A stretch of 64,000 nt of DNA, from assembly GCA_965223465.1 (NCBI GenBank), contig OZ245025.1:641685-705684 (forward strand), read 5' to 3'. Position numbers and translations under genes: made by a program. Of this stretch, positions 4,255 to 60,009 are shown piece after piece (the first letter of the stretch is position 1; the number at the start of each line of letters is the position of its first letter). This DNA is from Candidatus Poriferihabitaceae bacterium. Lineage in GTDB: Bacteria; Pseudomonadota; Gammaproteobacteria; Arenicellales; Poriferihabitantaceae. The notes beneath the pieces are model-generated. The model did no database searches. It had not been told where the DNA came from and saw nothing but the letters and a program-made list of their open reading frames with translations.

Positions 4255-4737
4255 ATGCCAACTTTTGTATATATGACTCGTTGTGATGGTTGTGGGCAGT
4301 GTGTTGATATCTGCCCCTCCGACATCATGCACATCGATAAGACCCTCCGTCGTGCTTATAACATTGAACCGAATATGTGCTGGGAGTGTTATTCCTGTGT
4401 AAAGGCTTGCCCACATCACGCGATTGATGTACGCGGCTATGCAGATTTCGCTCCACTAGGCCACTCGGTACGCGTAATTCGTGATGAGGAAAAAGGCACC
4501 ATTGCGTGGCGTATCAAGTTCCGCAACGGTAAAAAAGATATGGATCTTTTAGCGCCGATTACGACAAAGCCCTGGGGTACGGGTTATCCTGATCTCGCTA
4601 ACGAGGCTGCGCCTAACGCAGAGATGCGTGACAGCGAGTTATTGTTTAACGAACCCAAGTATGTCCGTATGGATGACGGCGATTTACATACGCTGGAATC
4701 AAATGGCTTGGAAATTAAAGAAGGGGTTTACTACTAA
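4255..4737 (+). CDS. aprB: adenylylsulfate (APS) reductase beta subunit, [4Fe-4S] ferredoxin-like
   Basis: MPTFVYMTRCDGCGQCVDICPSDIMHID...CWECYSCVKACPHHAI carries two Cys clusters and an AprB-type tail. The stop overlaps the aprA start (TAATG). Confidence 0.95.
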   Translation: MPTFVYMTRCDGCGQCVDICPSDIMHIDKTLRRAYNIEPNMCWECYSCVKACPHHAIDVRGYADFAPLGHSVRVIRDEEKGTIAWRIKFRNGKKDMDLLAPITTKPWGTGYPDLANEAAPNAEMRDSELLFNEPKYVRMDDGDLHTLESNGLEIKEGVYY

Positions 4738-6644
4738 TGGGCTACAAGACAATTATTGAAGACGATATTGATATCCTCGTAGCAGGGGCGGGCCTGGGTG
4801 GTACCGGTGCAGCCTTTGAAGCAAGATATTGGGGAAAAGACAAAAAAATCGTTATTGCTGAAAAAGCAAACATTGATCGTTCTGGTGCGGTCGCCCAGGG
4901 TCTGTATGCGATCAACTGTTACATGGGTACACGTTTCGGCGAAAATAATCCTGAAGATCACGTACGCTATGCGCGTATCGATTTAATGGGTATGGTTCGT
5001 GAAGATTTGGCGTTTGATATGGCACGCCACGTGGATTCGGCGGTACACCAGTTTGAAGAATGGGGTCTGCCTATCATGCGCAACGAAAAGACCGGCACTT
5101 ACCTGCGGGAAGGGCGTTGGCAAATCATGATTCACGGCGAGTCGTACAAGCCGATAGTGGCTGAAGCGGCTAAAAAATCCGCTGATAAGGTATTCAACCG
5201 AATTTGTGTCACCCATCTGCTGATGGATGAATCCAAAGAAAACCGCGTCGCGGGTGCCGTTGGTTTCAACGTGCGAACGGGTAACTACCATGTGTTTAAA
5301 TCCAAGACGGTTATCTGTGGTGCTGGTGGTGCGTCTAACATCTTTAAACCACGGTCGGTCGGTGAAGGTGCCGGTCGGGTCTGGTACGCACCATGGTCAT
5401 CCGGTTCTGCTTATGGTCTGATGATTGAAGCCGGTGCAAAGATGACACAAATGGAAAACCGCATCGTACTGGCGCGCTTTAAAGATGGATACGGCCCGGT
5501 AGGCGCATACTTCTTGCACCTCAAGACGTATACCCAAAACTGTAATGGCGAAGAATACGAATCAAAATGGTTCCCTGCCTTACAAGAAATGGTGGGTATA
5601 GAATATCTGGACCCAGAAGCGTCTCACGCGACGCACCGTCCAATCCCAACCTGTTTGCGTAACCACGCCATCATCCATGAAGTGAATGCGGGTCGTGGTC
5701 CTATCCACATGGTTACGATGGAAGCTTTTCAGGACCCTCATCTCGAAGAGATTGGCTGGCATAACTTTCTGGGTATGACCGTTGGTCAGGCCGTGTTATG
5801 GGCAGCAACAGACGTTGATCCGAAATACGAAAACCCAGAGCTGACGACATCTGAGCCTTATGTAATGGGTTCACACGCTACCGGTTGTGGTGCATGGTGT
5901 TCTGGTCCTGAGGATGTCTCTCCGGATGAGTATTTCTGGGGTTATAACCGCATGACGACCATTGAAGGTCTGTTTGGTGCTGGTGATGCGGTCGGTGGTA
6001 CACCCCACGCATTCTCATCTGGTTCATTCACAGAAGGTCGTCTGGCGGCCAAAGCAGCTTGTAAGTATATCGACGATGGTAAGGCGGAAGGCATTCGTGT
6101 CACTGATGCGCAGATTGATCGCCGCAGGGAAGAGATTTACAAGCCGCTGGAAACTTACACAGTATATCGCAACGAGATCGTTGCTGGGTCGGTGAATCCA
6201 AACTACATCAACCCCAAACAAGGTCTTGATCGTTTGCAGAAACTGATGGATGAGTACTGTGGTGGTTTTGGTGTGAACTACATGACCAACGATAAGTTGC
6301 TCCAAATTGGTCTTCGTAAGTTGAAGACTTTTGAAGAAGATCTGGAGAATATCGCGGCTGAGGATATCCACGAGCTGTTGCGCGCATGGGAGCTAAAGCA
6401 CCGTTTTCTGACGTCCGAAAGCGTGTTCCACCATACTCTGTTCCGTAAGGAAACGCGTTGGCCTGGTTACTACTATCGGGGTGATGCGATGAAGTTGGAT
6501 GATGAGAACTGGCATGTGTTAACCGTTTCTCGTCGCGATCCTAATACCGGTGAGTACACGATGGAAAAAGCGCCTCTGTATCACCTTGTCGGTGACATCG
6601 AGGACAAAGACTTGGCCAAGCTGAAAGCAGAAGGTCATCACTAA
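4737..6644 (+). CDS. aprA: adenylylsulfate (APS) reductase alpha subunit, FAD flavoprotein
   Basis: 635-aa ORF with an N-terminal FAD fold (DILVAGAGLGGTGAA). The fumarate-reductase-like AprA sequence runs throughout, and the gene is translationally coupled to aprB. Confidence 0.95.
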   Translation: MGYKTIIEDDIDILVAGAGLGGTGAAFEARYWGKDKKIVIAEKANIDRSGAVAQGLYAINCYMGTRFGENNPEDHVRYARIDLMGMVREDLAFDMARHVDSAVHQFEEWGLPIMRNEKTGTYLREGRWQIMIHGESYKPIVAEAAKKSADKVFNRICVTHLLMDESKENRVAGAVGFNVRTGNYHVFKSKTVICGAGGASNIFKPRSVGEGAGRVWYAPWSSGSAYGLMIEAGAKMTQMENRIVLARFKDGYGPVGAYFLHLKTYTQNCNGEEYESKWFPALQEMVGIEYLDPEASHATHRPIPTCLRNHAIIHEVNAGRGPIHMVTMEAFQDPHLEEIGWHNFLGMTVGQAVLWAATDVDPKYENPELTTSEPYVMGSHATGCGAWCSGPEDVSPDEYFWGYNRMTTIEGLFGAGDAVGGTPHAFSSGSFTEGRLAAKAACKYIDDGKAEGIRVTDAQIDRRREEIYKPLETYTVYRNEIVAGSVNPNYINPKQGLDRLQKLMDEYCGGFGVNYMTNDKLLQIGLRKLKTFEEDLENIAAEDIHELLRAWELKHRFLTSESVFHHTLFRKETRWPGYYYRGDAMKLDDENWHVLTVSRRDPNTGEYTMEKAPLYHLVGDIEDKDLAKLKAEGHH

Positions 6645-11143: not shown

Positions 11144-11186
11144 ATTATCTGGATGCTTTAAAGTTAATTGTCATTGGTTTCGTATC

Positions 11187-11243
11187 GCCTAACGTCTAAA
11201 TCAGCGCCCGCTTTCAGCGGTGCGCTGTATTTCCTTGTTAGAG
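11187..11243 (-). repeat. integron attC site (57 bp) of the Mrr cassette
   Basis: The plus strand reads GCCTAAC-43 nt-GTTAGAG, with internal imperfect inverted repeats (cagcgc/gcgctg, ccgc/gcgg). The minus-strand R'' box CTCTAAC contains the Mrr stop codon, and the R' box is GTTAGGC. Confidence 0.75.
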
Positions 11244-12071
11244 GTTTTCAAAATAGGACTCATTTACAATAACTTCCTCGATTACCTTTTCCTTTACTTC
11301 AATTCCAATATTTAATTCTTTCAGTTTAGCAACCAAATCTTCACCATCAATCATATCCAATGGAGGAGCCCCATCTCTTTGGGCTTCTCTTCTCGCTTCT
11401 CGAGTAAATGTTCCGGTAGTTATTAGCAACCCTTTATCAGCCCTTCCTACCATAGCACCTCTAAAATCTCTAACTATCGACGGAGATATCGAACCCTTGT
11501 AACGTTTACATTGAAAAATTACATGGAATGACAACAATCCACCAATTCTTACTACACCTTTACCGTCAATCCCCCCATCTCCAGACTTTCCAGTAACTTC
11601 AACTGAGGTAAATCCGGATTCTCTCAGTATCCTTTGGCACAATCGTTCAAAAGCATCAGGAGGAATATTTTTAACTATTGTTAATACTTGGTCCTCCCAT
11701 AGTAATTCTTCTAGTTCTTCGGGCTCTTTATCTTTCTTACTAGGAGCAGATTTTTTATCCAAATTTTGAACAAACTTTTTTACTTCGTTCTTTTCGACAG
11801 AAGTGCGCTTTTGCCCTTCGGAAGTGATAGCCCAAATCCCGCGAGAAGAATTCGTTATTACTCCAAATCGTTTTAGGTAGGTTCTAGCCCAGGCTAGACG
11901 ATAACTAAACTTAGTTCTATTTCCTCGATGTATTTCAGCAAGTTCTTTGTCGGTCATCAACAAGATTTCAGCAACCTTTTCTTCCTGTTCGTCAATCGAA
12001 GCGGAACCTCCTAGGTCTCTAATAGCTATAAAAAGAGGTTCTAGAAGGTCATCATATTTTGGAACTGCCAT
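11238..12071 (-). CDS. Mrr-like (type IV) restriction endonuclease
   Basis: An Mrr_N-type winged-helix N-terminus (LLEPLFIAIRDLGGSASIDE...FSYRLAWARTYLKRFG) is combined with a C-terminal Mrr catalytic core (GDGGIDGKG...FQCKRY...). AGGAG precedes the ATG, and the stop lies inside the attC R'' box. Confidence 0.85.
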   Translation of the reverse strand: MAVPKYDDLLEPLFIAIRDLGGSASIDEQEEKVAEILLMTDKELAEIHRGNRTKFSYRLAWARTYLKRFGVITNSSRGIWAITSEGQKRTSVEKNEVKKFVQNLDKKSAPSKKDKEPEELEELLWEDQVLTIVKNIPPDAFERLCQRILRESGFTSVEVTGKSGDGGIDGKGVVRIGGLLSFHVIFQCKRYKGSISPSIVRDFRGAMVGRADKGLLITTGTFTREARREAQRDGAPPLDMIDGEDLVAKLKELNIGIEVKEKVIEEVIVNESYFENL

Positions 12072-12086
12072 AAATTTCTCCTAGAC

Positions 12087-12215
12087 CTCTAACGTTTTGA
12101 ATATGGGGCGACTTGCAGCGCGCTTAGTAAATGTAAGCTAACTAGCACATTGAAAAAGCGCGCTGTAAGGCGTCCCAGCTGGCCACAAGCCAGCGACATC
12201 ATTCTCTTGTTATGT
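12087..12215 (-). repeat. integron attC site (129 bp) of the HNH cassette
   Basis: The plus strand reads CTCTAAC ... GTTATGT, with a long imperfect inverted repeat (ggggcgacttgcagcgcgctt / aagcgcgctgtaaggcgtccc). The HNH stop codon lies in the minus-strand R'' box ACATAAC. Confidence 0.8.
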
Positions 12216-12947
12216 GCGATTTTCAATCACCTGCCCTAACTGTTTAATACTCAACGCGGGGCGCGTAATATGAATCATTGCATGACAATTAGGGCATACA
12301 GGAACCAAATCGTTAATCGGGTCTAGTTCGTATTCTTCACCGATTTCGGATATTGGAACGATATGGTGGACGTGTATATAGTTTTTTCCGATTTCACCAT
12401 AAGCTTTCTCGAAATCGAAAGAGCACACCGCGCATTTATAACCATGATGCGCTAAGCACCTTGCTCTTGCGTCGGCGCTTCGCTCGTATTGATTTACAGT
12501 CACAGTTTTCGAAGCACCCTCTTTAAATATCTCTTTAGGATCTACTTCTTCAGCTAATCGCGTTCCATGTGATTCGTCCGATGCGTACCAGCAATTATCA
12601 ATACGAATAAGTTTTTTATCAAACAGCTTTCGGGTGAAACCTTTTATTTTTGCTGGTGCGCCTTCCTTTTGACCGGCCGCTTCATACTCCATTGGAAATG
12701 TTTTGAGTTTGTACCCTTCCTCTTCTATCAGCCGTATATGCTCCCGTGATTGGGGATATCCCGGTTGTTTGGCATCCTTGCGACTATACTCCCAGTCCTC
12801 GCTCAGGATAAGGGTCATGTTGCCGTCATCGTATACATCCCAAGCGCCGAAAATAATGAATTTTTCAGTCTCATTTATAAATGACCAACTCCACATCCAA
12901 TTCTTACAAGTTGCACCTTGAGATTCGATGAACTGCTTTCTACTCAT
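12210..12947 (-). CDS. HNH endonuclease with an unrecognised N-terminal domain of about 150 aa
   Basis: The C-terminus (CAVCSFDFEKAYGEIGKNYIHVHHIVPISE...DLVPVCPNCHAMIH) is an McrA-type HNH/zinc-finger nuclease. I could not place residues 1 to about 150 in any family. Confidence 0.85.
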   Translation of the reverse strand: MSRKQFIESQGATCKNWMWSWSFINETEKFIIFGAWDVYDDGNMTLILSEDWEYSRKDAKQPGYPQSREHIRLIEEEGYKLKTFPMEYEAAGQKEGAPAKIKGFTRKLFDKKLIRIDNCWYASDESHGTRLAEEVDPKEIFKEGASKTVTVNQYERSADARARCLAHHGYKCAVCSFDFEKAYGEIGKNYIHVHHIVPISEIGEEYELDPINDLVPVCPNCHAMIHITRPALSIKQLGQVIENRT

Positions 12948-12968: not shown

Positions 12969-13041
12969 ACATAACGCCTCGCATCAGCGGCCAAATGCAC
13001 GCGTAGCGGGCATTTGGTCCGACTGCATGCGCTTGTTAGGC
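12969..13041 (-). repeat. integron attC site (73 bp) of the acidic-protein/protease cassette
   Basis: The plus strand reads ACATAAC ... GTTAGGC, with the inner inverted repeat ggccaaatgc/gcatttggtcc. It lies 17 nt downstream of the protease stop. Confidence 0.8.
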
Positions 13042-13057
13042 ATGAGTATCGAACTCA

Positions 13058-13984
13058 CTACGGCATAGCATCCACCCGCAGGTAGTTGCCTCGGCCGTTA
13101 TTATTTTCAACTAGCTTGACACAATTAGTTACTGAAAAAGTAACCATGGTTGCATGAAAAGCAGATAGAACTTTCTCTTGAAGATCTTGGTCGCTTTCTA
13201 AATTAGAGACTCTAAGCCCAATTTTCTTCGCTGTGTCGATATTGATAGGTCGGCCATGTGTTTTATGTAAATTAGCGTTTGCAAGCCATGCTGCAATTTC
13301 CTTTCCAGGTCTTTTTGCTACCGGCCTTCGCTTAAACATGTTTGCGTTTAGCCACTCCTCAACCTTCTGTTGTGATAAAACCAATGTGGTTTTACAAATA
13401 TTAAGAAATCCATGAGGGTAGGCTTGTATTTTTGTAACCCATAGTGGTGCTGTTTTTGGATCAGCCGTTATTTCCTTTTTTGCTTGCTCAAATTCGTCAA
13501 GAATGGCTTGAGCGGGAGCAGTGAAACTGCCATTGACAGTCGGGAAAGTTACTTGTGGGTCGATTGGTCCAATAGCAGAATGCTTGCCCATTACTATTTC
13601 ATCACAAGCGCATGCGATCATAGTTGCTGCGGACATCGCATTTTGCGGAACGATGGCCCGAATATGCGTGTACTTGCTTCTAAGATATTGTACAAGTTGT
13701 TCCGCTGCCTCCATTGAGCCACCCGGGCTATGAAGTATTAGATCTAGCTTGCTATTGGTAAGTCCGTGTATCGCTGACATAAACCCTTGTATATCTTGGG
13801 TTGTTACAGAAAGAACGTTTGCAGGAAGATTTGCACTGTTGCTGGCAGTAAATGCCGTTGCATAGATTATTGTATCTCTGCCAGTGTATGCAGATAGGTC
13901 AGATAGATACTGGCGCCTTATCGTATCTTGAGCTCCACCTTTTGCTTCATGTATTTCAGTCCTTATGTCATTTAGTGTTGGCAT
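13058..13984 (-). CDS. SDH-family / ClpP-fold (SppA-like) serine protease
   Basis: The core LDLILHSPGGSMEAAEQLVQYLRSKY...IVPQNAMSAATMIACACDEIVMGKHSAIGPIDPQ matches the serine-dehydrogenase-proteinase (PF01972-like) Clp fold. GGAGGA lies 8 nt before the ATG, which sits inside the upstream small ORF. Confidence 0.8.
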   Translation of the reverse strand: MPTLNDIRTEIHEAKGGAQDTIRRQYLSDLSAYTGRDTIIYATAFTASNSANLPANVLSVTTQDIQGFMSAIHGLTNSKLDLILHSPGGSMEAAEQLVQYLRSKYTHIRAIVPQNAMSAATMIACACDEIVMGKHSAIGPIDPQVTFPTVNGSFTAPAQAILDEFEQAKKEITADPKTAPLWVTKIQAYPHGFLNICKTTLVLSQQKVEEWLNANMFKRRPVAKRPGKEIAAWLANANLHKTHGRPINIDTAKKIGLRVSNLESDQDLQEKVLSAFHATMVTFSVTNCVKLVENNNGRGNYLRVDAMP

Positions 13985-14159
13985 CTCCAGTGTCCTCCGT
14001 TGATACTGTCAATTTAAACTCCTTAGCCGATGCAGAAGCTTCTAAAGCGATGGCGATGCTTTCAGCTAACTTTTCAGGAATGTTTTCTGATATCAGTGAA
14101 AGTAGTTCTTCGCGTTCGGCTTCTAAGTCTCTGTCAGTTGAATCTTCGGTTTCAGTCAT
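13968..14159 (-). CDS. small acidic protein (about 63 aa), translationally coupled to the protease
   Basis: The ORF overlaps the protease start by 17 nt. The track start at 14171 abuts the attC directly; ATG at 14159 has GAGGAAAAAT upstream. The sequence is very Asp/Glu-rich (TETEDSTDRDLEAEREELL...) and no family was recognised. Confidence 0.55.
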   Translation of the reverse strand: MTETEDSTDRDLEAEREELLSLISENIPEKLAESIAIALEASASAKEFKLTVSTEDTGDANTK

Positions 14160-14171
14160 ATTTTTCCTCAT

Positions 14172-14241
14172 GCCTAACGCCTTTAGCAGCGGACCGAAAA
14201 GCCGCTAGGCTTTTTGTGTCCGATGCCTAAACTTGTTAGGT
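14172..14241 (-). repeat. integron attC site (70 bp) of the membrane-protein cassette
   Basis: The plus strand reads GCCTAAC ... GTTAGGT, with the inner pairing tttagcagcggac / gtccgatgcctaaa. Confidence 0.75.
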
Positions 14242-14250
14242 GTGCCTTTG

Positions 14251-14733
14251 TTAAGCAAATGCCCATAAAATAGTACCTACAACTGCTGAGAAAACGATGA
14301 TGTAATCTACAACTTTCTCTAGTCTATCCATAGTTTGATCAATGTACCACATACGGCCATTATTCTGATTGAAGAACTCTTTTGGCTTTGCTAAATGATA
14401 AATAGTCCATGAATCAGTATTTACAATCACTTTGCCAGACCTGTATTGCTGGGCAGTAATTTCTATGTTTTTTGTAGGCTTGTCATCTGCATCAACTTCA
14501 AGATAGATGTATTGTGTAGATTGCCCAGGTTGGACTTGGTTTACAAAGCGTCGGTGGCCTTTGTCGTGGAATACTTCTGCTATTATTACTCCGCAAATTA
14601 ATAGGGCGCCAGCTCTATCAAGTGATAGGTATGGAGTTGCACTCAAAGGAACGGCGAGCCATCCACAAGCCAAAGGTTTCCAAACGCGTGAGGCAAATGT
14701 ATACCAATGTTTAAGATTTCTCAGTTTTAACAT
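14251..14733 (-). CDS. hypothetical membrane protein (about 3 TM) - orphan cassette ORF
   Basis: The track start at 14760 is TTG and lies inside the attC R' box, so I prefer ATG at 14733 (MLKLRNLKHWYTF...). Hydrophobic segments flank a soluble insert of about 80 aa. Confidence 0.55.
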   Translation of the reverse strand: MLKLRNLKHWYTFASRVWKPLACGWLAVPLSATPYLSLDRAGALLICGVIIAEVFHDKGHRRFVNQVQPGQSTQYIYLEVDADDKPTKNIEITAQQYRSGKVIVNTDSWTIYHLAKPKEFFNQNNGRMWYIDQTMDRLEKVVDYIIVFSAVVGTILWAFA

Positions 14734-14748
14734 TTTACTTCCAAGTAC

Positions 14749-14823
14749 ACCTAACGCCAAGTTAACCGGCGCGCGATAGCGCGTCCGAGCGAGGAACGAG
14801 CGCTGTTGAACTTTTTGTTAGGG
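14749..14823 (-). repeat. integron attC site (75 bp) of the lipoprotein cassette
   Basis: The plus strand reads ACCTAAC ... GTTAGGG, with the inner inverted repeat aagttaac / gttgaactt. The lipoprotein stop codon lies within the minus-strand R'' box CCCTAAC. Confidence 0.8.
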
Positions 14824-15300
14824 CTTCTCTGCCTCAAGGTGCCTATTCCTCTCGATTCTTTTTGGAATGAAGTTCTCTTGAACAATACCTTTGGAGAATA
14901 ACTCATCCCACTTTTTTCGTGACTCCGCTTCAAAATAGAAATAACCATCATAGCCTAGAATTTTGAAGAACCCACCGTAATAGCTCAATGCTAATAGACT
15001 TTCTTTACCATCACGCACTCTAGCTACAGCTAATCGACTTCCTTTCCACAGCACCCACTCATTCTTATAGCGCGCCTGCGGTGCTAGAAGCCTAAAGTGC
15101 TCAGCTTCAATGGTGGCTTGAAATGCGTTTTCCAGTTCGTTCTTAGAATATTTTGTACCGGAGAGCCCTTCTAGATCATAGACCGTTATAGATTCAATTT
15201 TCTTTGAGATTCCTACGAGATCTGGTGGCTCGGATTTACAGGCTGCAATAAGCAAGCCACAAGTAATAAGAATCATCCATTGCCATGATCTCCGTTTCAT
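14818..15300 (-). CDS. hypothetical lipoprotein (160 aa) - orphan cassette ORF
   Basis: The track ORF (to 15486) runs across an attC and into the RT gene. The internal ATG at 15300 gives MKRRSWQWMILITCGLLIAAC|KSE, a signal peptide plus lipobox. No family was recognised. Confidence 0.6.
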   Translation of the reverse strand: MKRRSWQWMILITCGLLIAACKSEPPDLVGISKKIESITVYDLEGLSGTKYSKNELENAFQATIEAEHFRLLAPQARYKNEWVLWKGSRLAVARVRDGKESLLALSYYGGFFKILGYDGYFYFEAESRKKWDELFSKGIVQENFIPKRIERNRHLEAEKP

Positions 15301-15308
15301 TCTAGTAG

Positions 15309-15381
15309 CCCTAACGCTTGGGCTCAGCCGACCCGAAAACGCGCCAGCGTTTTTGGGGTCGGCTGGAGCCCCTTGTTCGGC
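15309..15381 (-). repeat. integron attC site (73 bp) of the RT cassette
   Basis: The plus strand reads CCCTAAC ... GTTCGGC, with a strong inner inverted repeat gggctcagccgaccc / ggggtcggctggagcccc. Confidence 0.8.
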
Positions 15382-15412
15382 CTTTTTTGGACTGGAAAAC
15401 CAGCACTTAGAT

Positions 15413-16523
15413 TTAGTATGCCCATGCATTCTCCTTGAACAATTCAACCTCTTCCGGTTGAACCACTTCCTCGGCCTCGCTGGCATCCCCTACAATTATC
15501 TTTCCAACCTCCAGGGCTTTCTTTAAGGCATCGCTCGAAATCCAGGTAGATTCCCATAGCTGCGGTGATTCACCATTAACAATTTTGCAAATAGGCTCTT
15601 CGCTTTCAAACTTGATACCGATGGCTTTTGGTTGGGTAACTCGCTGCAACCAAATTTCAAGATATCCGTTGTACGGAATTCGCGCCATTTTCTTTCGGAC
15701 TTTCGTCCACAATCGCACTTTATCATCACTCGGAGCAAGTGATATCAAATGGCTCAAGATTCCGGCTACAGCCGGAAACGTTGCTGGCGATACAGATGCG
15801 ATATCAGTTGCGATGGCGATTTGTACCTCCAAATCGTCAGGGGCTTCAGTTTGCTTTGAAACGCTTGTGTGAAACTCGCCTACTAACCTTCTCAGAGCCC
15901 CGCTATTCGGATACTTTTGGCCGAAGGAATGCAACCTTAACAGTTGCTTTTGTATCGTTTTCGCATTGGAATTTCCAAGATCCTGAAGTTCGATGCCGGC
16001 TAGCTTATCCGGCTTAATTGACCCTTCGACAACGTTTCTGCAGGAGAATGTTTTTGACACGCCGAGCTTCATACCCACAGATCGCAATTTGTCGCTTACA
16101 AGTTTAAGAACTGTTTCTGCTTTATCATCACTGTTGGCAAATATCCGATAATCATCCCTATATCGGAGTATTTTAAAATCCGCATTTTGTCCTACTTCTT
16201 GATTTATTTGCTCGTCCACATACCCAAGAACCATTTCCGCCACAAAGTCCATGAGAACCGAACCTTGTGAAATTCCATTTGTTTGACCATAACGGCCTGC
16301 CTGAATATGTGCATCAATCTTGTTGCCGAGAAGTGAGTTCTTTCCCTTATTGTTCTTGGCGTTGTCTAAGCCATGTAATGCCCATGAAATGCTATGCGTA
16401 TATAGCGATCCGTAGCAGTCGGTTACATCAGTATGGAGAAGATGATTGAACTCCAGAGAATAAATTAGTGATCGTTGCTCTACACTTTGCCACCAACTTT
16501 TGATCTGCGTTGCAACATCCGTC
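15413..16523 (-). pseudogene. Abi/UG-type (defence-class) reverse transcriptase, 5'-truncated by the IS21-family element
   Basis: The listed ORF (15413-16252) begins at an internal Met. The same frame stays open upstream to the IS end (16524). It reads ...LLHTDVTDCYGSLYTHSISWALHG...GISQGSVLMDFVAEMVL...ILRYRDDYRIF...MKLGVSKT, giving RT motifs 1/2, 4, 5 (YxDD) and 6. No start codon or N-terminal region remains. Confidence 0.75.
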
Positions 16524-16595
16524 TGTTAATTTGCATCCAAAATTGACCCGGGATTTGCACTGAATTTTGACCCGTCTATTTGGTCTGATTATGAC

Positions 16596-17369
16596 CTAAG
16601 TTGAGTTTCTTTTTTTAGCTTTCACCTCCTTCATTTTTGCTGTTGAATGCCTGAACCGGTAACTGTCATTACCCGTTTCAATGATATGGCAGTGATGGGT
16701 TAATCTGTCCAACAATGCCGTTGTTAATTTCGGATCACTGAACACACTAGACCATTCTGCAAAATCCAGATTAGTGGTAATGATGATACTAGTCTTCTCA
16801 TAGAGCCTGCTGATCAGATGGAATAATAATGCCCCACCGCTTTGACTGAACGGCAGATAGCCCAATTCATCCAGGATCACCAGATCGGTATGCAATAAAC
16901 GATTCGCCAGGCGCCCTGGTTTTCCCAATTGTTTCTCCTGCTCAAGCTGGTTGACCAGTTCAATTACGGACAGACAACGCACCCTGAGATGGCGATGCTG
17001 TATGGCCTGTACACCAATGGCTGTTGCCAGATGTGTTTTGCCCGTACCCGGGCCGCCCACGAAGACGATATTCTGCGCGTCTTCCAGAAACTCACAGCGA
17101 TGCAAGGCCCGGATAAGTGCTTCATCGGCCTCGCTCTCGCTAAAATCAAAGCCAGCCAGATCTCGATAGGCCGGGAACCTGGCTACCTTCATCTGGTAGT
17201 TGATGGAACGGACTTCCCGTTCAGCCACCTCAGCCTTAAGCAAGACCTCCAGGATCGGTATCGCCTGCTGATAAGCAGGTGCAGACTGAGTGGACATGGT
17301 CGCAATGGTCTCAGCCATACCAAACAGCTTGAGAGACTTCAACGTAGTAATCATGGCTTGCGCTTTCAT
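16596..17369 (-). CDS. istB: IS21-family helper ATPase IstB
   Basis: The Walker A motif [20 protein letters not shown], and a DnaA/DnaC-like AAA+ fold are present. The start overlaps the istA stop (ATGA). Confidence 0.95.
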
Positions 17370-18904
17370 TGCTTGCCTCCACGAAGACGATCATAGCGCC
17401 GGGTGTTGGCCACAGGCTCATTCACCAGCTTCAGCGCTGCAGGTGTTCGAAGCGACTTGGGACGAGGGGGGTCACTGAGCCTGCTCAGGCAATTGAGTAC
17501 ATGCTCCCGGGACGGGTGTTCAACCTTCAGAGCTTCGTTAACTGCCCGTTCAACCAATTGCTCATCGTGCAACAGCACCAGGGCCAGTACATCAACCATC
17601 TCACGATCACCACCAGGGTGCTTTAACAATCGGGTTTGCAGTTGTTGGAAACTCTCCGGCAGTTCCTTGAAGGGGGCACCATTACGTAACGCCCCAGGCT
17701 TACGCTGTACCACTGACAGATAGTGGCGCCAGTCATATATTGTCCTGCCGCTGCTGCCATGATCGCGGGTAAAGACCCGTTCATGAACGGCCACCTGGCG
17801 GGCTTCAGCCACAATCACCAACCGTTCGGCATACACGCGCAGGCTCACCACCCGGTTGGCAAAGCTCGCCGGGACACTGTATCGATTATGTTCAAAGGTG
17901 ATCAGACAGGTCGAGGTAACACGTTTGCTGTGTTCAACAAAGCCGTCAAAGGCAGCGGGCACCTCCATCAGATTTGCTTGCTCCTGTTGCCAGTAATCGT
18001 AGATCGTCTTTAGTTTGTCCTGGGGATGGGCCGATTCTTGCCACAGATCAATACAGCGCTTAAGCAACCAGCGGTTCAGTTCAGCGAGCGATTTGAATCG
18101 GGGGGCATCCTGCCATATCCGGTACCGCGCATCGCGTACCCCTTTCTCCACCTGACCTTTCTCCCAGCCCGCTGCAGGGTTGCAGAACTCCGCTTCGAAT
18201 AGATAGTGGCTAGCCATCGCTTGAAAGCGCCGGTTGATGGTCCGTTGCTTGCCGCGACCTACTTTATCCACCGCTGTCTTCATGTTGTCATATATCCCCC
18301 GTTCTGGAACACCACCGAAGATGCCGAAGGCATGGTAGTGCGCATCAAACAGCATCTCGTGGCTCTGCAACAGGTAGGCCCGCAGGTAGAAGGCCCGACT
18401 GTGGCTGAGCTTGAAGTGCGCAATCTGCAACTTGGTGTTCACGCCATTGATCACCGCATAGTCTTCGCTCCAGTCGAACTGGAAGGCTTCTCCTGGCGCA
18501 AAGGATAAGGGAACATAGGTGTGTTTGCCCGCACCTCGCTTTGCCTCCTGCTGTTCCTGCCTCCAGGCGCGAGCAAAGGCAGCCACTCGATCATACGAAC
18601 CTGTAAACCCAAGCTTAACCAAATCACTGTGCAGTCGCCGCATCGTGCGTCGCTGCTTGCGGTGTCTTCTTGATTCCCTAAACAGCCAATTGGTCAGTGT
18701 CTGCTCATAATCATCAAGCTTGGATGGACTCTTCCTGCTGGGGTAGCTCGGCTCCACCACGCCACTAGCGAGGTACTTGCGAACTGTATTACGGGACAGC
18801 CCGGTTCGCCTTGCTATCTCTCGAATCGGCATCCCCTGGCGGAAATGCCATCGTCTTATTACACTTAATAACGCCACGTCTATCACTCCGATTATCTCCT
18901 GCAT
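17366..18904 (-). CDS. istA: IS21-family transposase IstA
   Basis: 512 aa, with an N-terminal HTH ([19 protein letters not shown]) and a DDE integrase core (FQFDWSE...). Confidence 0.95.
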
Positions 18905-19003
18905 TAGTTCTTCGCAGGAGGGGTTGTACGTGGGTCAAAATTCGATGCAAATACCTAGCCTTAGTGGGTCAATTTTGGATGCAAATTAACATTTCAACGA
19001 ATA

Positions 19004-19732
19004 ATGCTTGATACCGAATGCGTTGGTGCTGATTGGGTCAAAGATTCTCAGGGAGAGCTGTCGTCGCGCGACCGCCTGAACATTTATCATAACGCCTACC
19101 GTATTCGATTGATCGATGTTTTGCTTGATACCTTTGAGCATACGGCTGTTTATTTAGGGGATAACTGGTTTAAGCAGCTGGCTTCAGCCTATGTTCAATT
19201 TCACGGCTCAATTTATACCAACATTGGCTTGTACGGTCTTGATTTCCCTAAATTTCTAGCAAAACAATTGCCCGATGATTTAGATGTTTCTGAGCTAGCA
19301 GAAATGGATTGGAAGCTGCGCAGGGTATTTGACGGGCCCGATAGCGTAGCCATGACTCGCTCTGATATCCAACAACTCGCGTCGGGAGAATCTGAGAGTC
19401 GATTACACTTTATAGCGACGATGAGCGTCATCACGCAAAAATTCAATACTTTGGATATTTGGCATGCCATCAATCAAGAACAAACCCCACCTAAAGCACA
19501 GTTGCAAACAGAACCGGTTGACGTTTTAATTTGGCGCAAGGGGTATTCACCTCATTTTAGGAGCCTTTCGGTTATCGAATCATCCGCTATTGCACACCTT
19601 ACTAATTACCGCACACTGGATGATATTGGTCGCGCATTAGGCTTGGATTATCCTGACGTCGATGTTGCGACGGAGTTTGGCTTGATGCTAAATCGCTGGC
19701 TGGACGATGAGATTTTATGCAAGTCTGAATAG
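19004..19732 (+). CDS. DUF2063 (putative DNA-binding) domain protein, with its 5' end abutting or clipped by the IS
   Basis: RLNIYHNAYRIRLIDVLLDTFEHTAVYLGDNWFKQLASAYVQFHG matches the DUF2063 core. The frame is open from the IS boundary (18992, FQRIMLDTE...). The DUF692 partner gene usually found upstream is absent. Confidence 0.7.
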   Translation: MLDTECVGADWVKDSQGELSSRDRLNIYHNAYRIRLIDVLLDTFEHTAVYLGDNWFKQLASAYVQFHGSIYTNIGLYGLDFPKFLAKQLPDDLDVSELAEMDWKLRRVFDGPDSVAMTRSDIQQLASGESESRLHFIATMSVITQKFNTLDIWHAINQEQTPPKAQLQTEPVDVLIWRKGYSPHFRSLSVIESSAIAHLTNYRTLDDIGRALGLDYPDVDVATEFGLMLNRWLDDEILCKSE

Positions 19733-59651: not shown

Positions 59652-60009
59652 GGGGGTGACTGGTTTTGACGCTGGTCGCGAAGCCATCGGAGCATGTCGA
59701 GGGACAGATCACCTCGTTAAACCAGCTGTAAACAGTTATAGTTGCAAACGACGATAACTACGCACTAGCGGCTTAATTGTCACGCTAGTCCTCCTTCCCG
59801 GCTCGTTCGTAGGCTAGGTTTTCGGAGGTCACTTATACGAAACCGCTCGCAAGGTTGTCTGTGCCGCGCGAGTTAAACTAAAGCAGGCTCGCCACTGCCG
59901 CGCTAGTCTATCGGTGTTGCAGCGGTTAACTTAAGGCATAGACTAAACATGTAGTCGCCGATGAGTGTAGGGCTGACGGACGTGGGTTCAATTCCCACCA
60001 CCTCCACCA
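59652..60009 (+). ncRNA. ssrA: transfer-messenger RNA (tmRNA)
   Basis: The 5' end is GGGGGTGACTGGTTTTGACG. The 3' T-arm and acceptor are GGGTTCAATTCCCACCACCTCCACCA. The tag ORF at 59744-59776 encodes ANDDNYALAA*. Confidence 0.95.

What the first reader, a model, noticed from the sequence alone, without database searches (positions are those of the whole stretch)
15413..16523. Defence-class (Abi/UG-like) reverse transcriptase cassette decapitated by an IS21 insertion
The track shows only a 279-aa ORF, but the same frame is open for another 90 codons, right up to the IS terminal repeat at 16524.

Together the sequence contains RT motifs 1/2 (HTDVTDCYGSLYTHSISWAL), 4 (GISQGSVLMDFVAEMVL), 5 (RYRDD) and 6 (GVSKT). 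A C-terminal domain of about 230 aa of unknown function follows.

The SIYTHSI-W and RYxDD pattern is what I associate with the Abi-P2/UG group of anti-phage RTs, not with group II intron or retron RTs. No start codon or N-terminal segment remains.

The gene has its own attC (15309-15381), so a defence RT was travelling as an integron cassette before it was inactivated.
Basis: partly seen in the sequence, partly recalled or inferred. Interest (0 to 1): 0.6.

Follow-up and report, generated by a model that had tools for sequence, protein, structure and literature searches.

The report
IS-truncated Abi-P2 defence polymerase cassette
This is the dead 3' three-quarters of a known anti-phage polymerase gene (Abi-P2 type) that sits in an integron cassette array and was cut off at codon 129 by an IS21-associated rearrangement; it is ordinary, though this polymerase travels between phyla as an integron cassette.

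Summary
On the minus strand one frame is open from 16523 to the stop at 15413-15415 (369 codons). The 279-aa ATG ORF is only its tail.

The product matches the PADLOC AbiP2 model almost end to end (E 3.8e-140, profile 133-487 of 489). It also matches the solved Abi-P2 structure 7R08. Group II intron, retron and DRT models score far below their cut-offs.

Intact orthologues are 498 aa and 72-89% identical across several phyla. The window copy starts at residue 129/130, so it lacks the start codon, RT motifs 1-2 and the priming tyrosine (Y30, equivalent to Tyr61 of 7R08). It is a pseudogene, and a recent one.

The attC at 15309-15381 is real, and at least five more attC sites follow in a co-oriented array. 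No integrase is present in the window. Orthologues elsewhere carry the same cassette ends, and those ends covary.

The IS (16524-18991) is a complete IS21-family element. It has no target duplication, and its other end truncates an unrelated gene (bufC/hvfC). So this was a deletion or inversion, not a simple insertion.

It is a new member of a known kind, of low to moderate interest.

The parts
15413..16523 (-). Abi-P2-type RT pseudogene remnant: residues ~130-498 of a 498-aa protein plus the stop codon. It has no start codon, no RT motifs 1-2 and no priming tyrosine.
   Evidence: Translation. PADLOC AbiP2 E 3.8e-140, profile 133-487/489. 7R08 E 2.7e-50. 87-89% identity to intact 498-aa proteins.
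16391..16435 (-). RT motif 3/A (HTDVTDCYGSLYTHS). The catalytic Asp equivalent to D161 is at 16427-16429.
   Evidence: Alignment to 7R08 'STDISNFYPSIYTHS'. Invariant in 10 homologues. Coordinates read.
16151..16162 (-). RT motif 5/C, the active site Y-R-D-D (Y250-D253 in orthologue numbering).
   Evidence: Sequence. Invariant columns. YRDD is the Abi-P2 active site according to PMC8632793.
15309..15381 (-). attC of the RT cassette: R'' GCCGAAC ... R' GTTAGGG. The cassette ends at the G of GTT (15315).
   Evidence: Hairpin z = -5.6. The same R'' box lies 15-33 nt after the stop in orthologues.
16524..18991 (-). Complete IS21-family element, 2468 bp, in the same orientation as the cassettes. No target-site duplication.
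   Evidence: Perfect 26-nt IRs and subterminal repeats. IstA/IstB Pfam hits. Single copy in the window. Flanks are ...CATCCGTC| and |TTTCAACG.
17366..18904 (-). istA transposase, 512 aa.
   Evidence: Pfam HTH plus Mu-transpos_C_2. Plasmid hits are annotated as IS21 family transposase.
16596..17369 (-). istB ATPase helper, 257 aa. Its start overlaps the istA stop.
   Evidence: Pfam IstB_IS21, E 8.1e-80.
18992..19732 (+). bufC/hvfC (DUF2063) gene lacking about its first 9 codons. Native sequence FQRIMLDTEC runs right up to the IS end.
   Evidence: (homologues are 253-269 aa and start MNLxELQxxFQR). bufA and bufB are absent from the window but precede bufC in a relative.
14749..14823 (-). attC of the next cassette, which encodes a 160-aa lipoprotein-like ORF at 14818-15300.
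   Evidence: z = -3.2.
14172..14241 (-). attC of the cassette carrying the 169-aa ORF 14251-14760.
   Evidence: z = -6.7.
12969..13041 (-). attC of the two-gene cassette: a 67-aa ORF plus an SDH/ClpP-like protease (13058-14171).
   Evidence: (z = -5.7).
12087..12215 (-). Long attC (approximate ends) of the HNH-endonuclease cassette (12210-12947).
   Evidence: I2; z = -6.9.
11170..11240 (-). attC (approximate ends) of the Mrr/type IV restriction endonuclease cassette (11238-12071).
   Evidence: (z = -5.1).

Best explanation
The region is the 3' 74% of an Abi-P2-type defence polymerase gene that entered this chromosome as an integron gene cassette.

When intact (498 aa), such proteins are single-gene abortive-infection systems. 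An RT-like palm/fingers domain plus a C-terminal helical domain forms trimers. It makes DNA without a template, primed from a tyrosine in its own N-terminal segment. No ncRNA is needed.

Here an IS21-family element abuts codon 129/130. The start codon, the ribosome-binding region, the 5' cassette boundary, RT motifs 1-2 and the priming tyrosine are all gone. The remnant therefore cannot make an active enzyme.

The IS has no target duplication, and its other end cuts the first ~9 codons off an unrelated chromosomal gene (bufC). The truncation therefore came with an IS-mediated deletion, or with an inversion between two IS copies. That event also removed or displaced everything upstream of the RT in the array, including any attI/intI. 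What remains is an integrase-less attC array (CALIN).

Shown here: the family assignment, the break point, the missing parts, the attC array, the absence of an integrase and of a TSD, and the bufC truncation.

Inferred, not shown: the biochemical mechanism (from Abi-P2 of phage P2-EC30, which is only ~31% identical), the anti-phage role, and deletion versus inversion.
For: Family:
- PADLOC AbiP2 scores 466 bits, E 3.8e-140, covering profile 133-487/489. The next best, RT_UG14, scores 152.6 bits.
- 7R08 (Abi-P2) is the top solved structure, aligned to chain residue 499, well into the helical domain.
- The founding Abi-P2 of P2-EC30 matches an intact orthologue over 92% of its length.

Truncation:
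- Intact orthologues are uniformly 498 aa. The alignment begins at Q129/T130.
- No N-terminal coding sequence exists elsewhere in the window.
- Y30 (LPRYISF) aligns with Tyr61 of 7R08 (LPAYINF). The Y61F variant of Abi-P2 does not polymerise DNA (PMC9508834).

Recency: the remnant differs at 1 of 220 columns that are invariant among 10 intact homologues. Intact proteins differ at 1-11 in the same leave-one-out test.

Cassette:
- attC hairpins are present.
- Orthologues in Aromatoleum, Thioalkalivibrio, Geothrix and metagenomes carry GTTCGGC about 30 nt before the ATG and GCCGAAC 15-33 nt after the stop.
- 17 of 68 non-redundant loci have perfectly complementary ends, including three compensatory variants.
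- An IntI homologue lies 3 kb from the RT in L071.

IS and rearrangement.
Against: - No experiment exists on this subfamily. It is only 30-32% identical to the characterised Abi-P2, so template-independent protein-primed synthesis and phage defence are extrapolated.
- About 30 of 68 orthologous loci showed no GTT core in the searched upstream interval under my strict test. The gene is therefore not always a recognisable cassette.
- The reciprocal junction (RT 5' end next to an IS copy) could not be sought. The source genome (a 3.38-Mb contig) is not readable with these tools, so deletion and inversion cannot be told apart.
- The IntI test on the window used an IntI1 sequence recalled from memory. 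The probe did find IntI homologues in L071 and L080.
Confidence: 0.9

Rival explanations
1. The 279-aa ATG ORF (15413-16252), or the 369-codon frame, is a functional shortened protein, for example a stand-alone helical domain or a dominant-negative subunit, expressed by read-through from istB of the IS.
For: The frame is intact and shows no decay. istA and istB lie on the same strand directly upstream. The source genome's annotation called the 279-aa ORF as a gene.
Against: An in-frame TAA in the IS end precedes the frame. The first ATG lies after motif 4/B, so its product would lack the motif A aspartate. The longer frame has no start codon. Both lack the priming tyrosine and the fingers motifs. 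The lack of decay is explained equally well by a recent event. Shorter proteins do occur among the homologues listed (347-416 aa, against 498 aa for most), but none was examined here.
Confidence: 0.05
2. The RT belongs to another RT class (group II intron maturase, retron, DGR, or a DRT/UG type that needs an ncRNA or an effector), and the Abi-P2 label is superficial.
For: Pfam sees only generic RVT_1. Weak hits to many DRT/UG models appear in PADLOC, and weak hits to group II and retron models appear in NCBIfam.
Against: The AbiP2 model scores three times the bits of the next model and covers the C-terminal domain to its end. The group II, retron, Drt2-5 and AbiA NCBIfam scores are all far below their cut-offs. 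The best solved structure is Abi-P2, and the alignment extends through the helical domain. The cassette leaves no room for an ncRNA.
Confidence: 0.03
3. A simple IS21 insertion split the RT gene, and the 5' half still lies just beyond the other IS end.
For: This is the simplest reading of an ORF that ends at an IS terminal repeat.
Against: The sequence beyond the other end is bufC, read on the opposite strand and itself truncated. No TSD is present. No RT N-terminal coding sequence exists anywhere in the 64 kb.
Confidence: 0.01

Closest known systems
Abi-P2 reverse-transcriptase-like polymerase of P2-like prophages (P2-EC30; PDB 7R08)
   Same: The same PADLOC family model matches nearly end to end. 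The YRDD active site and the motif A aspartate are shared. The C-terminal helical domain aligns. The N-terminal priming tyrosine is conserved in intact orthologues (Y30 = Tyr61). Both are single-gene systems.
   Different: Only 30-32% identical. This gene is carried on an integron cassette in environmental bacteria rather than in the variable region of a P2 prophage. The window copy lacks residues 1-128 and is dead. No phenotype or biochemistry exists for this subfamily.
Anti-phage systems carried as integron cassettes (Darracq et al. 2025; Kieffer et al. 2025; Getz et al. 2025, as cited; bioRxiv 10.1101/2024.07.02.601686)
   Same: A compact single-gene defence system sits between attC sites. 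Its neighbours are other defence-like cassettes (Mrr type IV REase, HNH). IS-disrupted defence cassettes are also reported in the V. cholerae array.
   Different: Abi-P2 is not named in that preprint's text or in its one held supplement. No paper in the searchable library holds both 'Abi-P2' and 'integron'. The array here lacks an integrase within 64 kb.
AbiK, AbiA and DRT4 (other UG/Abi class 1 template-independent polymerases)
   Same: RT-like palm/fingers domain without a thumb, a helical C-terminal domain, and protein-primed or template-independent synthesis in the characterised members.
   Different: Much weaker matches: AbiK 96.8 bits, Drt4 116 bits, against AbiP2 466 bits. According to PMC9508834, the helical domains of AbiK and Abi-P2 show no sequence homology.
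IS21 family insertion sequences
   Same: Overlapping istA (512 aa) and istB (257 aa), 26-nt terminal IRs of the TG...CA type, and repeated subterminal motifs.
   Different: No 4-8 bp target duplication. The two flanks come from unrelated truncated genes, which indicates a secondary rearrangement.

Membership tests
Abi-P2 (UG/Abi class RT-like defence polymerases) | The family profile HMM matches along RT and C-terminal domains and outscores other RT classes. | tested here: met
   PADLOC AbiP2 scores 466 bits, profile 133-487/489. The next model, RT_UG14, scores 152.6 bits.
Abi-P2 (UG/Abi class RT-like defence polymerases) | Y(R/V)DD active site and motif A aspartate. | tested here: met
   YRDD is at 16151-16162. 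The Asp in HTDVTDCY is at 16427-16429. Both are invariant in homologues. The criterion comes from PMC8632793.
Abi-P2 (UG/Abi class RT-like defence polymerases) | C-terminal helical domain homologous to that of Abi-P2, replacing the thumb. | tested here: met
   The sequence alignment to 7R08 runs to chain residue 499 of 541. No structure was predicted here.
Abi-P2 (UG/Abi class RT-like defence polymerases) | N-terminal priming tyrosine (Tyr61 in 7R08). | tested here: not met
   It is deleted in the window copy, whose residues 1-128 are absent. It is present as Y30 in intact orthologues. The window gene is therefore a family-derived pseudogene, not a functional member.
Abi-P2 (UG/Abi class RT-like defence polymerases) | Fingers motifs 1-2 and a start codon (complete ORF). 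| tested here: not met
   Pfam RVT_1 aligns only from position 69 of 205. A stop codon lies in the IS end upstream. No N-terminus is found in the window.
Abi-P2 (UG/Abi class RT-like defence polymerases) | Template-independent, protein-primed DNA synthesis, trimer formation, and phage exclusion. | not testable with these tools
   Known only for E. coli Abi-P2 (PMC9508834; PMC8632793).
Integron gene cassette | 3' attC with R''/R' core sites (RYYYAAC ... GTTRRRY) that folds into an imperfect hairpin. | tested here: met
   GCCGAAC ... GTTAGGG at 15381-15309. The bulged hairpin has z = -5.6.
Integron gene cassette | 5' boundary at G|TT, with a core complementary to the cassette's own R''. | tested here: inconclusive
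   The 5' end is deleted in the window. In orthologues it is met: 17 of 68 loci have perfectly complementary ends, including 3 compensatory variants.
Integron gene cassette | Lies in an array of co-oriented cassettes separated by attC sites. | tested here: met
   At least six attC sites lie on the minus strand between 11170 and 15381.
Integron gene cassette | Adjacent intI/attI platform (complete integron). | tested here: not met
   tblastn with IntI1 finds no tyrosine recombinase in the window. The same probe finds IntI in L071 and L080. The array is CALIN-like.
IS21 family | IstA transposase plus IstB ATPase, with terminal inverted repeats. | tested here: met
IS21 family | Short target-site duplication flanking a simple insertion. 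| tested here: not met
   The flanks CATCCGTC and TTTCAACG share no repeat. This indicates a rearrangement.
Group II intron, retron, and Drt2-5 RTs | NCBIfam equivalog score above the curated cut-off. | tested here: not met
   Group II 41.6 against 300. Retron St85 31.5 against 235. Drt4 111.7 against 450. Drt3b 108.8 against 350.

The most novel reading that the evidence does not exclude
The intact 498-aa form of this gene is a single, unusually conserved Abi-P2-type cassette (72-89% amino-acid identity). It is shared by Gamma- and Betaproteobacteria, Planctomycetota, Acidobacteriota and many metagenomes, with attC core sites that covary at both ends. That would make it one of the more widely disseminated defence cassettes of environmental integrons. 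This association of Abi-P2 with integrons does not appear in the searchable literature. The window would then record one host discarding it through an IS-mediated deletion.
Probability: 0.45. Interest if true: 0.45.

Novelty: new member of a known kind. Interest (0 to 1): 0.3.

Why it matters
For this window it matters little: it is a recently inactivated defence gene, and annotation should flag it as a pseudogene.

The wider value is in three points:

- It gives a clear example of an RT-type abortive-infection system moving as a promoter-proximal, self-contained integron cassette across phyla. This extends the 'integrons as defence biobanks' picture to the UG/Abi polymerases.
- The intact orthologues are compact (about 1.66 kb per cassette), carry no ncRNA and are highly conserved. 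They are candidates for testing whether template-independent, protein-primed synthesis holds far from the E. coli prototype.
- It illustrates how an IS21 element can turn an integron into an integrase-less array while deleting a neighbouring chromosomal operon (bufAB).

Tried and rejected
- **Locating the source genome.** The look-up of encoding contigs with bufC, MetH, IstA and P0121 returned nothing on record. The listing of cluster members shows only that the proteins come from an unnamed 3.38-Mb NCBI/ENA contig.
- **Genome-wide IS search.** I spent the single genome-contig scan on the 26-nt IS end, hoping to find other IS copies and the reciprocal RT junction. It returned one unrelated solo end in a MAG (L004), which was useless.
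- **Known IS name.** A megablast of the IS against plasmids gave only about 76% matches within istA, annotated IS21 family.
- **Rfam.** The whole-window scan found only a tmRNA and nothing near the RT.
- **Literature.** The supplement of the Darracq preprint does not mention AbiP2 or DRT. No paper in the library holds both 'Abi-P2' and 'integron'.
- **Rejected readings.** I considered and rejected a group II intron, retron or DRT identity, a simple insertion with the 5' half across the IS, and an associated ncRNA (no space in the cassette).
- **Not run.** Structure prediction and the 1.84-billion-protein representative search were skipped, because a solved homologue and thousands of sequence homologues already settle the family.

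Full report
**Observation**

On the minus strand, the frame that ends with TAA at 15413-15415 stays open upstream to 16523-16525. It reads QTDVATQIKSWWQ...ENAWAY*. The codon before it is a TAA that lies inside the terminal repeat of an insertion sequence. The first two bases of the Gln codon coincide with the terminal CA of that repeat.

The ORF list shows only the 279-aa ATG-initiated tail, 15413-16252.

**What the protein is**

Pfam sees a generic RVT_1 domain, and only from profile position 69 of 205. The PADLOC library is decisive. The AbiP2 model matches at E 3.8e-140 (466 bits) over profile positions 133-487 of 489. The next models are RT_UG14 (152.6 bits), Drt6, Drt4, Drt3b and AbiK.

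NCBIfam equivalogs all score far below their curated cut-offs. This holds for the group II intron maturase, retron St85, Drt2, Drt3a/b, Drt4, Drt5 and AbiA.

The best solved structure is 7R08, the Abi-P2 polymerase. The alignment runs through the RT-like domain and well into the helical domain (E 2.7e-50 for the fragment; E 7.2e-76 for an intact orthologue). The founding Abi-P2 of prophage P2-EC30 matches an intact orthologue over 92% of its length, but at only 31.7% identity.

- HTDVTDCYGSLYTHS is RT motif 3/A, with the catalytic aspartate at 16427-16429, not motifs 1/2.
- The roughly 230-aa C-terminal part is the known Abi-P2 helical domain rather than a domain of unknown kind.

**What is missing**

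A search of the 5.8-billion-protein collection returned thousands of relatives. The best 120 are almost all exactly 498 aa and 79-89% identical. Named sources include Aromatoleum petrolei, Thioalkalivibrio sp. K90mix, Geothrix sp. SG200, a Thermoguttaceae bacterium and a Planctomycetes MAG.

Aligned with ten of them, the window copy begins at residue 129/130. The missing 128 codons contain three things:
- the start codon;
- the fingers motifs 1-2 (NKDGKFSWRPLELIHP);
- Y30 in the nearly invariant LP(R/K)YISF.

Y30 aligns without gaps to Tyr61 of 7R08 (LPAYINF). Figiel et al. showed that the Y61F variant of Abi-P2 does not polymerise DNA. They concluded that this tyrosine primes synthesis (PMC9508834).

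tblastn with four intact N-termini finds nothing in the 64 kb. The remnant is thus a pseudogene.

It is a young pseudogene. It differs at only 1 of 220 columns that are invariant among the ten intact proteins (a conservative R263K). Intact proteins differ at 1-11 columns in the same leave-one-out test.

**Cassette status**

Fifteen to 33 nt after the stop codon, the window and most close orthologues share the box GCCGAAC. This is followed by a variable imperfect palindrome and a GTT core. The bottom strand folds into a bulged hairpin (-27.6 kcal/mol, z = -5.6).

At least five further attC-like hairpins with AAC/GTT cores separate the co-oriented minus-strand ORFs between 11170 and 14823.

In intact orthologues the other cassette boundary is visible: GTTCGGC lies about 30 nt before the ATG.

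A scan of JGI metagenome contigs with an alignment of the family gave 80 more loci. The counts are as follows:
- 46 of 84 loci with enough upstream sequence have a GTTCGGC-like core (at most 1 mismatch).
- 38 of 79 loci with enough downstream sequence have the GCCGAAC-like box.
- Of 68 non-redundant loci with both flanks, 17 have perfectly complementary end cores. These include three compensatory variants: GTTCAGC/GCTGAAC, GTTAGGC/GCCTAAC and GTTGGGC/GCCCAAC.

This is the signature expected of a cassette whose two ends form one attC when it is excised.

One locus (L071) has an IntI homologue, 49% identical to my IntI1 probe, 3 kb upstream of the RT. Another (L080) has an intI fragment.

The cassette leaves about 25-37 nt before the ATG and 15-33 nt after the stop, so there is no room for a companion ncRNA or a second gene. 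This fits a template-independent, protein-primed enzyme.

About 30 of the 68 loci showed no GTT core in the searched upstream interval under my strict test, and most of the rest did not pair with a complementary downstream box. The gene is therefore not always in a recognisable cassette.

**The insertion sequence and the rearrangement**

The element spans 16524-18991 (2468 bp). It has perfect 26-nt inverted repeats (TGTTAATTTGCATCCAAAATTGACCC), repeated subterminal motifs, and overlapping istA (512 aa) and istB (257 aa; IstB_IS21 E 8.1e-80). It is a single copy in the window. Its nearest plasmid matches are annotated as IS21 family.

Its flanks...CATCCGTC| and |TTTCAACG..., share no direct repeat.

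Beyond the far end the plus strand reads FQRIMLDTEC.... This aligns with residues 10 onward of HvfC/BufC (DUF2063) proteins, which are 253-269 aa long and begin MNLxELQxxFQR. In a relative, bufC is preceded by a 96-aa precursor-like gene and a DUF692/MbnB gene. Neither is present anywhere in the window.

Both IS ends therefore abut the truncated 5' ends of unrelated, divergently oriented genes. The simplest history is an IS insertion followed by an IS-mediated adjacent deletion. The alternative is recombination between two IS copies, giving an inversion.

The cassettes read right to left, so any attI/intI platform would have lain exactly in the lost interval. A tblastn with IntI1 finds no integrase in the window. 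The same probe does find IntI in two orthologue loci. What remains is an integrase-less attC array.

I could not distinguish deletion from inversion. The source genome is an unnamed 3.38-Mb contig, probably a sulfur-oxidising gammaproteobacterium related to Candidatus Thiodiazotropha. This is judged from aprBA and the bufC relatives. That contig is not readable with these tools. My one genome-collection scan returned only an unrelated solo IS end.

**Mechanism**

By homology, the intact protein should act as Abi-P2 does. That is a trimeric RT-like polymerase whose helical domain replaces the template strand. It synthesises DNA from its own tyrosine and blocks phage by abortive infection (PMC9508834; PMC8632793).

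This is inference from a protein about 31% identical. Nothing has been tested for this subfamily.

The window copy lacks the primer residue, half of the fingers and any translation start, so it cannot do this. A residual role for the 279-aa ORF, for example expression by read-through from istB, is not excluded, but nothing supports it.

**Comparison and novelty**

Abi-P2 polymerases, defence systems in integron cassettes, IS-disrupted defence cassettes and IS21 elements are all established. What I could not find described is Abi-P2 as an integron cassette:
- No paper in the searchable library holds both 'Abi-P2' and 'integron'.
- The Darracq et al. preprint does not name it in its text or in its one held supplement.

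The library is incomplete, so this is weak evidence of novelty.

I rate the finding as a new member of a known kind. The pseudogene itself is ordinary. The cross-phylum cassette family behind it is the more interesting lead.

Noticed in passing
window 11238-12071 and 12210-12947 (minus strand): Two neighbouring cassettes look like defence genes. One is an Mrr_N+Mrr_cat protein (PADLOC mREase_IV, E 1.3e-27). The other is an HNH endonuclease with weak mREase_IV and ZorE hits.
   Followed up: partly
window 13058-14171 (minus strand): A two-gene cassette holds a 67-aa acidic ORF that overlaps the start of a 308-aa SDH-type ClpP-like serine protease. There is no clear PADLOC match. It could be an uncharacterised cassette-borne system.
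   Followed up: no
window 18992-19732 (plus strand): bufC/hvfC (DUF2063) has lost about its first 9 codons at the IS end. Its operon partners bufA and bufB (DUF692/MbnB) are absent from the window, so the bufferin-type RiPP operon was destroyed by the same event.
   Followed up: yes
window 14818-15486 (minus strand): The 222-aa ORF in the mechanical list runs through the attC and is over-extended. The likely gene starts at the ATG at 15298-15300 and encodes a 160-aa protein with a lipoprotein-like signal (MKRRSWQWMILITCGLLIAAC).
   Followed up: partly
L009-L088 and L001-L008: The two ends of the RT cassette covary. There are 14 GTTCGGC/GCCGAAC pairs, plus GTTCAGC/GCTGAAC, GTTAGGC/GCCTAAC and GTTGGGC/GCCCAAC. 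The central part of the attC differs between otherwise 80-89% identical cassettes.
   Followed up: partly
L071 193-1089 and L080 4548-4748: L071 has a full IntI homologue on the same strand as the RT cassette, 3 kb away (the 'inverted integrase' arrangement). L080 has only a 68-aa intI fragment, divergent from the RT.
   Followed up: no
L001 518-13064: In one metagenomic chromosome the RT cassette lies between two DruA (Druantia) gene fragments and several IS66, ISL3 and IS240 transposases, next to a PIN-domain gene. This is a scrambled defence island.
   Followed up: no
L002 9604-16694: In Aromatoleum petrolei the RT is the first of about ten small co-oriented genes, ending with a TIR-domain protein, directly after eCIS_core genes. 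This is probably a long cassette array with further defence candidates.
   Followed up: no
L004 7942-7967: A MAG from the genome collection carries an exact copy of the 26-nt IS terminal repeat, but the sequence diverges immediately inside it. This is a solo or unrelated IS end.
   Followed up: partly
window 59652-60009 (plus strand); 180-2909; 4255-6644: The window also holds a tmRNA gene (Rfam, 204 bits), pyruvate phosphate dikinase, and APS reductase aprB/aprA. This points to a sulfur-oxidising gammaproteobacterial host. GC content is 47% overall, 43% in the cassette array and 52% in the IS.
   Followed up: no
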